This document shows, piece by piece, positions 45,672-49,878 of a stretch of 64,000 nt of DNA; position 1 is the stretch's first letter, and every line of letters starts with the position of its first letter. The notes below the pieces were generated by a model that ran no database searches, had not been told where the DNA came from, and was given only the letters and a program-made list of their open reading frames with translations. The stretch is from sequence record KF055347; one strand, given 5' to 3'. The position numbers and the translations under genes are program-made. The DNA is from Escherichia phage JH2.

Positions 45672-46043
45672 TTACTTTTCAGTATTCTTTGTGTTCTTTT
45701 CAGTAATAGCTTGGAGGGCTGATACTGATTGAGCCAGATTGTTCACACTATCAGAGAATTTATCAAGGGTCTTAGTAAGTTTTGCGTTCTCACCCTTAAC
45801 ATTCTCTAACTGGACTTTCTGGTTCTCCATCCCTAGCTGAAGCAGCCTCATATCAGACTGTAAATCACGAATAGCTGAATAATTACTTTTGGAATAATTA
45901 TCTAACTGCTGTAACTTTGTTGTGATAGACACTTCTTGTTTACCACTTGCAACCTGCATTGTGGTATACATCCCAATAACACTAAAAATACCAACTACAA
46001 TTGCACCAATATTGTTTTTAAAAGCTTCCTCTAGCCACTTCAT
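45672..46043 (-). CDS. hypothetical membrane-anchored coiled-coil protein
   Basis: 123 aa; N-terminal TM IGAIVVGIFSVIGMY then helical region; last gene of the late block. Confidence 0.45.
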   Translation of the reverse strand: MKWLEEAFKNNIGAIVVGIFSVIGMYTTMQVASGKQEVSITTKLQQLDNYSKSNYSAIRDLQSDMRLLQLGMENQKVQLENVKGENAKLTKTLDKFSDSVNNLAQSVSALQAITEKNTKNTEK

Positions 46044-46237
46044 TTATTCTCCCCCTTAAAAGCTTTTTCTAAGTTATCTACGAACTCATCATCAATAGGT
46101 GTGTCTGTTTTACTCGCAAGGTATCTTGCAAGTCTAAAGAACACTTTCTCAATCATGTATTCACTTAGAAGGGATAAAATGAGTTTCCAGAAGAAGCTAC
46201 CTAGATTTTTTAGAAGAATTGCTAGGATTGTAGGCAT
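46040..46237 (-). CDS. hypothetical small hydrophobic protein
   Basis: 65 aa; hydrophobic N-terminus then acidic tail. Confidence 0.4.
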   Translation of the reverse strand: MPTILAILLKNLGSFFWKLILSLLSEYMIEKVFFRLARYLASKTDTPIDDEFVDNLEKAFKGENK

Positions 46238-46316: not shown

Positions 46317-48662
46317 TTAAGCAGTTCTCACCCAAGCCATTAACTTATAGAACTGGTTAATTACACTAAATGCTGAACCAGAACCTGTACCACCAGTGTT
46401 ACCACTTACTGTGTGGCTGTGAGCACCAATACCAACTGAGTGAGCGTGGTTACCATTTGATGCAGCAGTACCACTTACTGAGTGTGAGTGATTCCCAGCA
46501 CTACCCGTTTGTACGGTATTTCTGTTACCATCAGAATCCCAATCACCCCTTGTACCACTTGGTTGCGCACCAGTAATATAACCATGTGTATGAGCACCTG
46601 TTGTATTCGTTGAACCACTCACTGAGTGGGTGTGAGCACCAGTAGTGTTAGTGGTTTTAGTACCGTAGTCAAAGCTAGAGGTTGTCGCAGAGAAACTATG
46701 CGTGTGTGAAGGTAAGTTACCAACAGCTAACGTCACAGAATCTGAACCACCTGTTGTAGCAACATCTGAACCGTTTGCTGCTGCAATTCTGATAGTTCTA
46801 CCAACACCATTGTTGAGGTACGTCCAAGTTAGACCAGGAAGTGCTGTATTAGGGTTAACATTGCTGTTAAACCAAGTTACAATACCTACTGGATAGATTT
46901 TATTAAGGTCTGTAGAGTCACTAATTGCCTGTGCAATCTTCTGGTCAGTTTCAGCTTTAGTGTATGCACCAATATCTGAAGGGGTTGGTTTAAAATCAGT
47001 TGTGTAAAGCTGTGCTTCCCCAGCATATCTGCCGTCTTTGTCATAGGCATAGGTGAATGTTGCCAGTCCATTTGAGCCATACACAAAAGAGATTCCTCTT
47101 GCATGTGCAGCAGTCTTATTAGAGTGAGCAACATGAATTGCCAACTCTTTCAGTCCACTAGTAACAGCATTGTTTCTGACAAAACCTGAGTACCCAAGAT
47201 TAAACCCTGAAGGGTTTTCAAGGTTATCTACAGATAATGTCATTAAGGATTGGTTTAATAACTGAGTTTTAACAAAATATCTAGCATCTAAGTTAGAAAA
47301 GTTCGAAGGTTGAACTTGACCAGTGATTGCTAAATTCTTATTCGCAACAATTGCTGATGGTTCAAGGGCAATTTGAGTACCAGAGTAACTATTGTTTAAG
47401 GTTACCACATTAGAGTTTGGGCCACCTACACCTAACCACCACCTCGATACGTTCGCGGTATCCACACCACGGATATATAGCGGTTGCCCCTGTGTCAAGT
47501 TTCTTAATACTAAACCTTCGTTATTTGATACGATAGTCTGCACATTCACGAAAGTGTTTGCCACATTAAGTTTAGGGAGATTACTCAAAGTAGCTGCTGG
47601 AATATATCTAGAGTCAATATTAGCCCAATCAGAAGGTTGAACTTGACCAGTGATTCTGAAGTCCTTGTTTACTGCGACATGCCCATTGTCAAGTCTAAGA
47701 TAAGAACCATACACATAGTTGCTGATGAATACAGCAGGTGTATTATCACCATTTCCTACATACCACTTACCAGAACCATCATTAGCTTCGGCTTTAACGT
47801 ATAGTGCAGCATTTGCTACAGTATTTTTCAACCTTAAAGCAGCACTGTCACTAATAATAAGTAGGTTTCTGCTAAACGTGTTAGTGCCAGTGAAATTGTT
47901 ATTAGCAGCTAACTGTGCAAATCTCTGATTAGCAACTGTCTGTGTGAAGTATCTAGCATCTAAGTTAGAGAAGTCAGAAGGTTGAACTTGACCAGTGATT
48001 GCTAAAGACTTATTAACAGAGACATTGCTTGCAATAGTCAAAGCTGAGTCATATTTATTATTGTACAGTTGCACTGCATCAGAGCCATTTTTACTAATAC
48101 CAACCAACCATCTAGCTGAACCATCTAGGTTTACACCTTCAATATATTGTGCATTGTTTGCATTTTGGTTTCTAAGGCGAAGTAAGTTAACATCACCTTG
48201 AATGTTCTGAGTTCCAGAGAATGTGTTTGTGACAGCAAGCCTTGCATATCTTGCATCATTCTCTTCATTAGTTCTCATACCAAGCTCATTAGGGCTTGGC
48301 TTATTCAGAGTATGATAAACAGTTGCCGACCTTGAAGCATCTGCAATAGTTAGTTTAAGACCATTTGCGTTGATTTTAAAAGTCTTTAAAACATCCCCAA
48401 TATTAATCTCAGAAGAACCTGTAGGGTCAAAGACTGCCTTACCACCATAAAGTAACTTAACAATACCTAAGTCACCCGTCATAGTACTACCAGCAATCTG
48501 AACAAATCTCTCAAGTTTAAAAGACGCTAAGAAGTCTTGATAGGTCATTCGACGGTCTTCATCACCTAGCATTTCAGGTCTCTTTTTAACCCTGACATGA
48601 AGAAGGTCATCTGAACGGATTGTGTCGATTGAGTTTAATTCACTCAACTTGTAATCTGCCAT
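46317..48662 (-). CDS. long tail fibre protein with triplicated internal module and His-rich C-terminal tip
   Basis: 781 aa; ITGQVQPS(D/N)(F/W)(S/A)N(L/I)D(A/S)RY occurs three times; C-terminal HTHS/HSHS/HAHS motifs shared with the neighbouring fibre gene. Confidence 0.7.
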
Positions 48663-48708: not shown

Positions 48709-49878
48709 TTAAGCTGTTCTTTGCCATACATAAACTACAAAAGATGGTTGCTCAACACTAAATGCTTGACCAGCACCAACAGACCCTGTAGTTCCTGAAT
48801 GGGTGTGTTCTCCAACTCCAGTAATGCTAACCGTTACATTGTGTGAATGTGCCCCGATAGCAACAGTGTGTGAGTGCGAGCCAATAGCCACCGTGTGATT
48901 ATGATTACCATTAGACGCAGCAGTACCACTGATGGAGTGAGAGTGGTTACCAGCACTATCTGTCTGAACAGTATTCCTGTGCCCATCCCTATCCCAGTCC
49001 CCTGACGCACCAGTATCTTGGTAACCAGTGACATATCCATGCGTGTGAGCACCTGTTGTATTTGTTGAACCACTCACAGAGTGTGTATGAGCACCAGTAG
49101 TGTTTGTGGTCTTAGTACCGTAATCAAATGACGAGGTTGATTTAGTACCATAATCAAACGCACTAACTGAGACATTTGCACCATGACTATGATTTCCACC
49201 TGTTAGGTAGATAGAATGACTGTGTGATGGTAAATTGTTGCTAGACAAACTAACACTACTAGAGCCAAAGTTACTACCGACTGGCCTTGAGTTATCACTG
49301 TAGCCTACTAATGCCCGACCTTTTGATACCAACTCCCAAGTACCTCCACAAATTAGGTAGGTAGCTGGGTTAGCAGAGTTCATCGAAAGGTGCAATGTAC
49401 CAACAGGATAAGAAGCCTGAACAGCCTTATACAAGTTATTTACTGCTCTTGCTGTAGCGTACTTATCTGCATCCTCATTATAAAGGTTAGATGTTGTCCA
49501 GTTCTGGACATTACTTAAACCAACCTGCGCCTTAGTTGTATTGTGTGGGTTGCTCTTGTCATTAATATGCTGTTGAATAAGGCTATTAACCTCTTCTGAA
49601 GACATAATCTGTAGATTTGCTCTTGCCTCAGCTACATTAACAATATCTGATAAGTTATTTGCAGCAACTAACTGAAGAGCATTAATAACATTGTCTAGAC
49701 CAATTTGTGTCTTAGTAACACCATGAGGGTTATTTCTTAGGCTTGAGTGTGGAGCAAGTAGTTGCTCAAGAGTACATCTCTTATCCTCAATACCCTGCTT
49801 AAGATGGAAGATATCACTAAGGTCAATTGGTAAGGCTGCTTGAGGCAAGGCACTAATTTGAATTTCACCTACTGCCAT
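48709..49878 (-). CDS. tail fibre protein with His-rich C-terminal tip
   Basis: 389 aa; C-terminal ~120 aa near-identical to the long fibre tip with repeated HxH motifs. Confidence 0.65.
   Translation of the reverse strand: MAVGEIQISALPQAALPIDLSDIFHLKQGIEDKRCTLEQLLAPHSSLRNNPHGVTKTQIGLDNVINALQLVAANNLSDIVNVAEARANLQIMSSEEVNSLIQQHINDKSNPHNTTKAQVGLSNVQNWTTSNLYNEDADKYATARAVNNLYKAVQASYPVGTLHLSMNSANPATYLICGGTWELVSKGRALVGYSDNSRPVGSNFGSSSVSLSSNNLPSHSHSIYLTGGNHSHGANVSVSAFDYGTKSTSSFDYGTKTTNTTGAHTHSVSGSTNTTGAHTHGYVTGYQDTGASGDWDRDGHRNTVQTDSAGNHSHSISGTAASNGNHNHTVAIGSHSHTVAIGAHSHNVTVSITGVGEHTHSGTTGSVGAGQAFSVEQPSFVVYVWQRTA

What the first reader, a model, noticed from the sequence alone, without database searches (positions are those of the whole stretch)
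46317..48662. Long tail fibre contains three tandem copies of a ~110-aa module
The motif ITGQVQPS(D/N)(F/W)(S/A)N(L/I)D(A/S)RY(F/I) recurs three times at regular spacing, and the DNA shows the matching repeat (ggttgaacttgaccagtgatt near 47310, 47640 and 47980). Tandem modules in a fibre shaft can expand or contract by recombination and change fibre length.
Basis: seen in the sequence. Interest (0 to 1): 0.45.

Follow-up and report, generated by a model that had tools for sequence, protein, structure and literature searches.

The report
Three-module shaft of a phage tail fibre
The long tail fibre gene of coliphage JH2 does contain three tandem ~110-residue shaft modules, a published feature of its genus; nearly all relatives have exactly three, module bodies are swapped between phages at the conserved joints, and rare uncultured relatives have four or five.

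Summary
Observation confirmed. The window is Escherichia phage JH2 (Felixounavirus). Gene 46317-48662 (-) is its 781-aa long tail fibre. It holds three tandem homologous modules (aa 136-234, 235-349, 350-458), each ending in [12 protein letters not shown]. The matching 21-mer occurs three times; none is expected by chance.

The feature is already known: Pfam PF20744 matches three times, and the 2025 Bas63 cryo-EM paper describes five beta-helix shaft domains. These modules most likely correspond to its domains 2-4.

The expand/contract reading is only partly supported. DNA similarity between modules is limited to a 68-nt joint (24-30 nt exact). 240 of 242 orthologue clusters have exactly three modules, as do all 28 complete IMG/VR loci and 7 of 8 complete metagenome loci.

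Copy number is not invariant, however. Syntenic uncultured Ounavirinae-like contigs carry four modules (one lineage) or five (one lineage, two independent samples, with a 3-module sibling).

The commoner outcome is in-register cassette exchange. Module bodies fall into discrete types that assort independently between phages, with breakpoints in the conserved joint and linker. Bodies have occasionally moved between positions 1 and 3.

The parts
46317..48662 (-). Long tail fibre (LTF) gene of phage JH2, 781 aa plus stop codon
   Evidence: ORF. PHROG 4277 matches 1-781 of the protein to 1-780 of the profile, 1311 bits. 100% identical to the JH2 putative tail fiber protein.
48258..48662 (-). aa 1-135: conserved N-terminal part, probably the baseplate-binding domain plus the first shaft domain. 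It ends in the linker [19 protein letters not shown].
   Evidence: 90-96% DNA identity to all Felixounavirus loci. No sequence homology to the three modules. The domain assignment is inferred from the Bas63 paper.
47961..48257 (-). Module 1 (aa 136-234, 99 aa): short linker [13 protein letters not shown], a five-strand beta core, and joint [13 protein letters not shown]
   Evidence: AF2 core residues ~150-225 have pLDDT 73-91 and five strands. Body type 3.
47616..47960 (-). Module 2 (aa 235-349, 115 aa): linker [25 protein letters not shown], a beta core, and joint [13 protein letters not shown]
   Evidence: AF2 core residues ~260-340 have pLDDT 76-88. Body type 1.
47289..47615 (-). Module 3 (aa 350-458, 109 aa): linker [22 protein letters not shown], a beta core, and joint [13 protein letters not shown]
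   Evidence: AF2 core residues ~370-445 have pLDDT 82-91. Body type 0, the commonest type at position 3.
47947..48014 (.). Joint J1: 68-nt DNA repeat copy at the module 1/2 boundary
   Evidence: Family D2 (91% to the J3 copy). Shares 30 nt of exact identity with J3 and 27 nt with J2.
47602..47669 (.). Joint J2: 68-nt DNA repeat copy at the module 2/3 boundary
   Evidence: Family D2 (74% to the J3 copy). Shares 24 nt of exact identity with J3.
47275..47342 (.). Joint J3: 68-nt DNA repeat copy at the end of module 3
   Evidence: Reference copy of family D2.
46983..47288 (-). aa 459-560: fifth shaft domain, not homologous in sequence to the modules. It is also a swappable cassette.
   Evidence: DNA identity to JH2 falls mostly into high (83-89%) and low (33-42%) groups across loci, with a few intermediate values of 58-67%. 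hhalign finds no homology beyond the overlapping joint.
46320..46982 (-). aa 561-781: collar, HxH needle and head, i.e. the receptor-binding tip of the T4 gp37 type
   Evidence: phmmer hit to 2XGF, E 2.5e-14, with HxH motifs aligned. Pfam Phage_fiber (above cut-off) plus weak, below-cut-off matches to Gp10_C and gp37_C.
48709..49878 (-). Upstream short tail fibre gene (389 aa). It shares the needle region with the LTF.
   Evidence: 277-nt direct repeat at 77% identity, 46408-46684 versus 48863-49139. PHROG 2097 and Pfam Gp10_C.

Best explanation
The gene encodes the trimeric long tail fibre of the Felixounavirus JH2. After a conserved N-terminal part come three homologous shaft nodules. Each has a five-stranded beta-sheet core per chain that probably packs as a triangular trimer, like the P domains of T4 gp34 and the pyramid domain of T7 gp17.

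The nodules are joined by a conserved joint (GQVQPS-x-F/W-x-N-L/I-D-x-RY) that probably forms the short central helix-and-turn keeping the three chains in register. A fifth, unrelated shaft domain and a gp37-like HxH needle tip follow.

The three modules come from an old triplication. Their bodies have diverged beyond DNA recognition, and the joint is held constant by structural constraint.

Because the joint and adjacent linker are the only stretches still similar at DNA level, they serve as crossover points. Between co-infecting relatives this usually happens in register and swaps whole module bodies as cassettes. Rarely it happens out of register. That has moved bodies between positions 1 and 3, and in two uncultured lineages it has added position-3-type modules to give 4- and 5-module fibres.

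Shown: the repeat, the family match, the near-fixed copy number, the mosaic and its breakpoints, and the 4- and 5-module genes.

Inferred: the trimeric fold, the helix role of the joint, that recombination rather than convergence produced the mosaic, and that three modules is the selected length.
For: Repeat and homology.

Family: Pfam PF20744 gp37_trimer, three stretches, 251 bits against a cut-off of 21.7.

Fold: the AF2 module cores are confident (pLDDT 73-91) with five strands each, and the linkers are low-confidence with short helices. The top Foldseek PDB hits are T4 gp34 5NXF (E 5e-5) and T7 gp17 4A0T/4A0U (prob 1.0). phmmer gives a weak hit of module 2 to 4A0T. The gp34 paper describes five-stranded antiparallel sheets forming triangular domains. 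[quoted passage not shown]

Copy number: 240 of 242 clusters, 28 of 28 complete IMG/VR loci and 7 of 8 complete metagenome loci have three modules.

Mosaic:
- Relative to JH2, the N-terminus and collar are 90-96% identical in DNA.
- Each module body is either 72-100% or 43-63% identical, independently of its neighbours. For example L010 is 100/58/46, L004 is 48/79/77 and L008 is 52/81/49.
- There are 45 body types in 70 architectures, and 22 of the 25 combinations of the five commonest position-1 and position-2 types occur.
- Identity switches sharply inside GQVQPS...DxRY plus the linker up to NxF.

Out-of-register exchange:
- SeKF_63 module 1 versus P0352 module 3 is 91/112 aa identical. P0042 module 1 versus P0014 module 3 is 93/112. 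In both cases the N-terminal linker stays position-specific.
- Five modules are seen in L001 and L040, which are 99.2% identical across all five modules, come from different samples and assemblers, and carry different dom5 cassettes. The sibling L002 has three modules.
- Four modules are seen in L032, carried by 3 contigs.
- All these loci are syntenic with the window.
- The longest internal exact repeats in these genes are 18-23 nt, shorter than the k=31 that Logan assemblies use (own knowledge).
- All extra modules carry the position-3-type linker.
Against: - No recombinant has been observed directly; the mosaic is inferred from comparison.
- The homologue sets are the top 120 hits of three searches and include metagenome assemblies, so type frequencies are biased.
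- Fibres with one or two modules would score lower and could have been missed.
- The AF2 model is a monomer with mean pLDDT 55, so the trimeric fold rests on analogy and on the Bas63 paper, which itself fitted AlphaFold models into weak density.
- The test for intragenomic gene conversion was negative. JH2's J1-J3 identity (90%) is in the upper tail, but within the range seen between genomes (maximum 91%).
- Within the genus Felixounavirus itself no copy-number variant was found.
Confidence: 0.75

Rival explanations
1. The three copies form an actively unstable tandem array: unequal recombination between them frequently yields shorter and longer fibres within JH2 populations, as a way to vary fibre length.
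For: Joints share 24-30 nt of exact identity, and their spacings of 327 and 345 nt are in frame. JH2 has the longest joint identity of the three genes compared (30 nt, against 23 in L001 and 21 in L002). Fibres with 4 and 5 modules exist in relatives. T4 gp37 is reported to gain host range by duplications of a small domain (Tetart 1996, cited in PMC3157838).
Against: Module bodies are 34-48% identical in protein and not alignable in DNA. Three modules are found in 240 of 242 clusters, in 28 of 28 IMG/VR loci and in Felix O1. The Bas63 paper reports no repeat-number variation in the genus. The extra modules in L001 are 64-75% identical in protein to their nearest relatives, so they are not recent duplicates.
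Confidence: 0.08
2. A frozen ancient triplication only. The joint is conserved purely for folding, its DNA similarity is a by-product, and it plays no part in recombination. Body diversity would then reflect relaxed constraint and accumulated point mutation, which is the first of the three possibilities in the Bas63 paper.
For: The joint motif is nearly invariant in protein across all relatives, so structural constraint is real. Copy number is almost fixed. The intragenomic conversion test was negative.
Against: Body identity falls into a similar group and a dissimilar group with a gap between them, with flanks at 90-96%, and neighbouring bodies vary independently. Gradual mutation would not give sharp switches at the joints. 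It would not give 22 of 25 type combinations, or near-identical bodies at different positions in different phages.
Confidence: 0.1
3. The 4- and 5-module genes are assembly artefacts of mixed phage populations, so true copy number is always three.
For: They come only from metagenome or SRA assemblies, and no isolate has them. L040 has only 7x coverage according to its contig name.
Against: The 5-module arrangement is seen in two different samples and two assembly pipelines at 99.2% identity, with 14 differing codons. The 4-module protein sits on 3 contigs. The longest internal exact repeats are 18-23 nt, below the k=31 of Logan assemblies (own knowledge), so there is no ambiguous path within the gene. 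The ORFs are intact and the loci fully syntenic.
Confidence: 0.07

Closest known systems
Long tail fibre gp27 of Escherichia phage Bas63 (JohannRWettstein), cryo-EM 2025 (PMC12609058)
   Same: Same genus and the same gene order, with the short fibre gene upstream of the long one. [quoted passage not shown] It notes unexpected variability of repeats 2-5 and no variation in repeat number.
   Different: The paper does not mention recombination ('recombin' occurs 0 times). It offers mutation tolerance, host recognition or defence escape as explanations. Here the variability resolves into discrete, independently assorting cassettes, and 4- and 5-module relatives are found outside the ICTV genus set. 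I did not align JH2 to Bas63 gp27 directly.
T4 proximal half-fibre gp34, C-terminal region (PDB 5NXF/5NXH; PMC5537660)
   Same: It is the top Foldseek hit (E 5e-5). Its P3-P5 domains have five-stranded antiparallel sheets, one per chain, forming triangular cores, and it also has alpha-helix-containing repeat motifs. JH2 modules are predicted to have five strands each.
   Different: Only 14% sequence identity. The gp34 domains are embedded in a long triple beta-helix and are not three clear sequence repeats. Pfam files the JH2 modules under PF20744, not under Gp34_trimer PF21446.
T7 tail fibre gp17, C-terminal region (residues 371-553) (PDB 4A0T/4A0U)
   Same: Foldseek probability 1.0. A weak direct sequence hit aligns module 2 residues 283-345 to chain residues 55-117.
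   Different: T7 has a single such region next to the tip, not a tandem array in a shaft. The sequence E-value is only 0.009.
Recombination at conserved motifs in T-even distal fibre and adhesin genes (Tetart 1996, 1998; Trojet 2011, PMC3157838)
   Same: Conserved motifs separate hypervariable segments. [quoted passage not shown] The JH2 family shows the same logic: conserved joints, variable bodies and rare module gain.
   Different: In T-even phages the shuffled parts lie in the receptor-binding end, and recombinants were obtained experimentally. Here the shuffled parts are shaft nodules of unknown function and the recombination is inferred.
[quoted passage not shown]
   Same: Tandem domain repeats in a virion protein of the same phages.
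   Different: Hex-Dec repeat number does vary among Felixounavirus species. The fibre module number does not.

Membership tests
Pfam PF20744 (gp37_trimer, tail fibre protein gp37 trimerization region) | Whole-protein score above the curated gathering cut-off | tested here: met
   251.3 bits against a cut-off of 21.7, E 4.7e-76, three matched stretches. Precomputed PF20744 on all close homologues.
Felixounavirus long tail fibre (PHROG 4277; Felix O1 ORF77 / Bas63 gp27 orthologue) | End-to-end sequence match to the family profile | tested here: met
   Residues 1-781 match profile positions 1-780 of 780, 1311.6 bits. 75-100% identity to 120 clusters.
Felixounavirus long tail fibre (PHROG 4277; Felix O1 ORF77 / Bas63 gp27 orthologue) | Conserved gene order: baseplate wedge, 100-aa ORF, short fibre, long fibre, two small ORFs, then convergent td and frd | tested here: met
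   Window ORFs compared with the Felix O1 annotation and loci L001, L002 and L032.
Felixounavirus long tail fibre (PHROG 4277; Felix O1 ORF77 / Bas63 gp27 orthologue) | Five shaft domains along a 630-A trimer attached to the LTF platform | not testable with these tools
   Only three of the five domains are recognisable by sequence. The AF2 monomer shows further strands in aa 70-115 and 474-551 at low confidence.
T4 gp37-type receptor-binding tip (collar, HxH needle, head) | Sequence homology to the solved tip, with repeated HxH motifs | tested here: met
   2XGF, E 2.5e-14, query residues 651-758, HxH motifs aligned. Pfam Phage_fiber repeat.
T4 gp37-type receptor-binding tip (collar, HxH needle, head) | Iron coordination by the HxH motifs in a six-stranded needle | not testable with these tools
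   The AF2 monomer has pLDDT below 50 across the tip.
Triangular beta-sheet fibre domains (T4 gp34 P3/P4, T7 gp17 pyramid) | Five-stranded antiparallel sheet per chain | tested here: met
   Five strands in each module core at pLDDT 73-91. Foldseek hits to 5NXF and 4A0T/4A0U. Definition taken from PMC5537660.
Triangular beta-sheet fibre domains (T4 gp34 P3/P4, T7 gp17 pyramid) | Three sheets packing around the three-fold axis of an intertwined trimer | not tested
   Only a monomer was predicted. A trimer prediction or a solved structure is needed.
Unstable tandem-repeat array (copy number changing by unequal recombination) | High DNA identity along the whole repeat unit | tested here: not met
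   Only 55-77 nt per pair are alignable (78-91%), the longest exact match is 24-30 nt, and TRF finds no array.
Unstable tandem-repeat array (copy number changing by unequal recombination) | Copy-number differences among close relatives | tested here: inconclusive
   None were found within Felixounavirus. There is a 3-versus-5 difference between L002 and L001/L040, whose flanks are 92-95% identical in DNA. One 4-module lineage exists.
Cassette exchange at conserved motifs (T-even gp37/gp38 type) | Conserved motifs flanking segments that occur in discrete, independently assorting variants, with breakpoints at the motifs | tested here: met
Cassette exchange at conserved motifs (T-even gp37/gp38 type) | Recombinants recovered experimentally, with a change in phenotype | not testable with these tools
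   Requires phage crosses.

The most novel reading that the evidence does not exclude
The shaft of the Ounavirinae long tail fibre is a combinatorial cassette system. About 100-nt conserved joint-plus-linker sequences let co-infecting phages exchange each nodule body independently. Exchange is occasionally out of register, which moved bodies between positions 1 and 3 and built 4- and 5-module fibres. The cassettes would be kept diverse because the nodules do something that is under diversifying selection, such as side-on contact with the host surface or escape from a defence that senses the fibre. The recombinational part is well supported here. The functional part is untested.
Probability: 0.3. 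Interest if true: 0.55.

Novelty: already known. Interest (0 to 1): 0.33.

Why it matters
The repeat itself is catalogued (a Pfam domain, and a cryo-EM paper on a congener), so the finding as written is ordinary.

What adds value is the bearing on a question the Bas63 authors left open: why shaft domains 2-5 are so variable. The comparison here argues against simple mutational drift and for discrete, recombining cassettes bounded by conserved joints.

That gives natural junction points for engineering chimeric fibres. It also supplies natural 3-, 4- and 5-module fibres for testing whether shaft length or shaft surface affects adsorption, fibre retraction along the sheath, or host range.

Tried and rejected
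- Tandem Repeats Finder found nothing at the modules; the copies are too diverged.
- Self-BLASTP of the whole protein returned only the identity hit, so the modules were cut out and compared pairwise.
- Intragenomic gene conversion between joints was tested. JH2's J1-J3 DNA identity (90%) is high but within the between-genome range (maximum 91%, 90th percentile 83%), so there is no support.
- I tested whether the first and fifth shaft domains are diverged copies of the module. hhalign finds nothing beyond the shared joint residues.
- The 2.8-kb match in Felix O1 looked like a longer fibre. It was the long fibre plus the adjacent short fibre joined by BLAST; the Felix O1 gene is 2349 nt with three modules.
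- Assembly looping was considered for the 5- and 4-module genes. It was rejected because internal exact repeats are only 18-23 nt and the arrangement recurs in independent assemblies.
- The 'VpaE1_ev' phages were considered as possible laboratory-evolved recombinants. I found no evidence for this and did not pursue it.
- Look-ups that failed: the Bas63 supplements are not held, PMC5899708 is not held, and my guessed Bas63 accession turned out to be Bas51.

Full report
**What the window is.** The 781-aa product of ORF 46317-48662 (minus strand) is 100% identical to the 'putative tail fiber protein' of Escherichia phage JH2. JH2 is an ICTV species of the genus Felixounavirus. The DNA matches 232 phage records, almost all Felix O1-like phages of Escherichia and Salmonella. 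Local gene order is the same as in Felix O1: baseplate wedge, a 100-aa ORF, a 389-aa short fibre, the long fibre, two small ORFs, then convergent td and frd.

**The observation.**
- The 21-mer occurs at 47308, 47635 and 47980 and nowhere else in 64 kb, even with two mismatches; 0 hits are expected from shuffles.
- The repeat finder extends this to a 68-nt direct repeat at 47275, 47602 and 47947, with spacings of 327 and 345 nt.
- Cut at the D(A/S)RY motifs, the modules are aa 136-234, 235-349 and 350-458.
- They are 34-48% identical, with BLASTP E-values of 2e-18 to 1e-23 and profile-profile E-values of 4e-40 to 4e-53.
- A fourth DARY at aa 136 closes the preceding linker, so the three modules are bounded by four such motifs.

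**What the modules are.**
- Pfam PF20744 (gp37_trimer) matches three times at 251 bits against a cut-off of 21.7.
- An AlphaFold2 monomer model is poor overall (mean pLDDT 55), as expected for one chain of an intertwined trimer.
- The three module cores are nonetheless confident (pLDDT 73-91) and each has five strands. They are separated by low-confidence linkers with short helices at the joints.
- Foldseek against the PDB gives T4 gp34 (5NXF, E 5e-5) and T7 gp17 (4A0T/4A0U, probability 1.0) as the only significant hits.
- The gp34 paper describes P domains built from one five-stranded antiparallel sheet per chain around a triangular core, and notes similar domains in podovirus fibres.
- The C-terminal 130 residues align to the T4 gp37 tip (2XGF, E 2.5e-14) with its HxH motifs.

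**What was already published.** The 2025 cryo-EM study of Bas63, in the same genus, describes its long fibre as follows.
- Repeats 2-5 are unexpectedly variable.
- Alignments and AlphaFold 3 models of all Felixounavirus fibres show no variable repeat number.

The first and fifth domains show no sequence homology to them. The feature itself is therefore known.

**Can the copies recombine?** DNA similarity between modules is confined to the joint. Each pair has 55-77 alignable nt at 78-91% identity, with exact runs of 30 nt (J1-J3), 27 nt (J1-J2) and 24 nt (J2-J3). From my own knowledge this is near the lower limit for RecA-type homologous exchange, so it is marginal rather than impossible. Any exchange between joints would be in frame.

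**Is copy number invariant?** Nearly.
- Counting with a module HMM, 240 of 242 long-fibre orthologues have exactly three modules at the same positions. These are 90%-identity cluster representatives from three searches plus five 50%-identity representatives.
- So do all 28 complete loci from IMG/VR. These include more distant Ounavirinae at 47-56% aa identity to JH2.
- So does Felix O1.
- So do 7 of 8 complete loci from a metagenome scan.

A profile search of 1.84 billion representatives also found two exceptions.
- The first is a 1015-aa protein with five modules.
  - It lies on a 77-kb contig (L001) that is fully syntenic with the window.
  - Its closest relatives have three modules; one of them is L002.
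  - L002's module 3 aligns twice to L001, which marks a 651-nt insertion of two modules.
  - The same five modules recur at 99.2% DNA identity in L040, from a different sample and assembler. L040 has 14 differing codons and a different downstream cassette.
- The second is a 901-aa protein with four modules.
  - It lies on L032, also fully syntenic with the window, and three contigs carry it.
  - Its true start is 30 codons upstream of the called start, giving 931 aa.
- The longest internal exact repeats in these genes are 18-23 nt, so an assembly loop is unlikely.
- The wedge proteins of both lineages are only 66-72% identical to any isolate. They are therefore uncultured Ounavirinae-like phages, not members of the genus Felixounavirus.
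- All extra modules carry the linker typical of position 3. This fits out-of-register exchange between the second and third joints (inference).

**What recombination mostly does.**
- With the joint stripped and clustered at 75% identity, module bodies fall into 45 types forming 70 architectures. JH2 is 3-1-0.
- Of the 25 combinations of the five commonest types at positions 1 and 2, 22 occur.
- At DNA level, against JH2, the N-terminus and collar are 90-96% identical in all Felixounavirus loci.
- Each body is either 72-100% or 43-63% identical, independently of its neighbours. Examples are L010 at 100/58/46, L004 at 48/79/77 and L008 at 52/81/49.
- Codon-by-codon comparison places the switches inside GQVQPS...DxRY and the linker up to the NxF motif.
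- Types are mostly position-specific, with exceptions. The usual position-3 type occurs four times at position 1, and one position-1 type occurs four times at position 3.
- Direct alignments confirm this. SeKF_63 module 1 and P0352 module 3 share 91 of 112 residues, and P0042 module 1 and P0014 module 3 share 93 of 112. In both pairs the linker remains position-specific.
- This pattern is hard to explain by accumulated point mutation alone, the first possibility raised in the Bas63 paper.
- It matches the logic long described for T-even fibre and adhesin genes, where exchanges occur at conserved motifs and small duplications arise.

**Limits.**
- No recombinant was observed directly.
- The homologue sets are biased towards top hits and include metagenome assemblies.
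- Fibres with one or two modules might have been missed.
- The trimeric fold is inferred.
- A test for gene conversion between joints within a genome was negative.
- The function of body diversity is unknown.

**Verdict.** The annotation as a long tail fibre is correct. The repeat is a published feature of this genus. The idea that the array expands and contracts is supported only as a rare evolutionary event in related uncultured lineages, not as a property seen within the genus or as likely instability of JH2. The more informative result is in-register cassette exchange at the conserved joints. Interest is modest.

Noticed in passing
window 46408-46684 and 48863-49139; also 48836-48897: The long and short fibre genes share a 277-nt stretch at 77% identity covering the HxH needle region. 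The short fibre gene also has a 27-nt tandem repeat (2.3 copies) that encodes repeated HSHTVAIG-type HxH units. This shared stretch could allow tip exchange between the two fibre genes.
   Followed up: partly
window 46040-46237 (-) and 45672-46043 (-): Two small conserved ORFs lie just downstream of the fibre gene. One is a 65-aa hydrophobic protein (PHROG 402; its counterparts in L001, L002 and L032 carry Pfam PF26925 Phage_PM2_GpI). The other is a 123-aa protein with an N-terminal hydrophobic stretch and a coiled-coil-like remainder (PHROG 4038). Their function is unknown; candidates are lysis or fibre-assembly roles.
   Followed up: no
window 46983-47288 (aa 459-560); L040 3538-3999 versus L001 8038-8319: The fifth shaft domain is also a swappable cassette. 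Its DNA identity to JH2 is mostly either 83-89% or 33-42% across loci. The two 5-module phages L001 and L040, otherwise 98-99% identical, carry unrelated versions of different length.
   Followed up: partly
L021, L027, L039: Three public contigs have the long fibre gene split by a frameshift (for example one module plus two modules in L039). This could be sequencing error or real pseudogenes; the cause was not resolved.
   Followed up: no
P0303 and P0418: Likely database mislabels. A 779-aa Felixounavirus-type fibre on an 88-kb contig is filed at NCBI under the archaeon Methanobrevibacter gottschalkii. A 795-aa fibre is named 'protein tyrosine phosphatase (PTP) superfamily phosphohydrolase (DUF442 family)' by JGI.
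   Followed up: no
L032 6001 (gene call) versus 5911: The public gene call for the 4-module fibre starts 30 codons too late. The in-frame upstream sequence MAEYNLSQLNTTTEV... matches the conserved N-terminus.
   Followed up: yes
P0129-P0270: The same module family (PF20744) occurs in one to a few copies in many unrelated-looking phage fibres of 80-2400 aa. It is combined there with Gp34_trimer, Phage_fiber_2, Collar or Peptidase_S74 domains, so it is a general fibre building block with variable copy number across families.
   Followed up: partly
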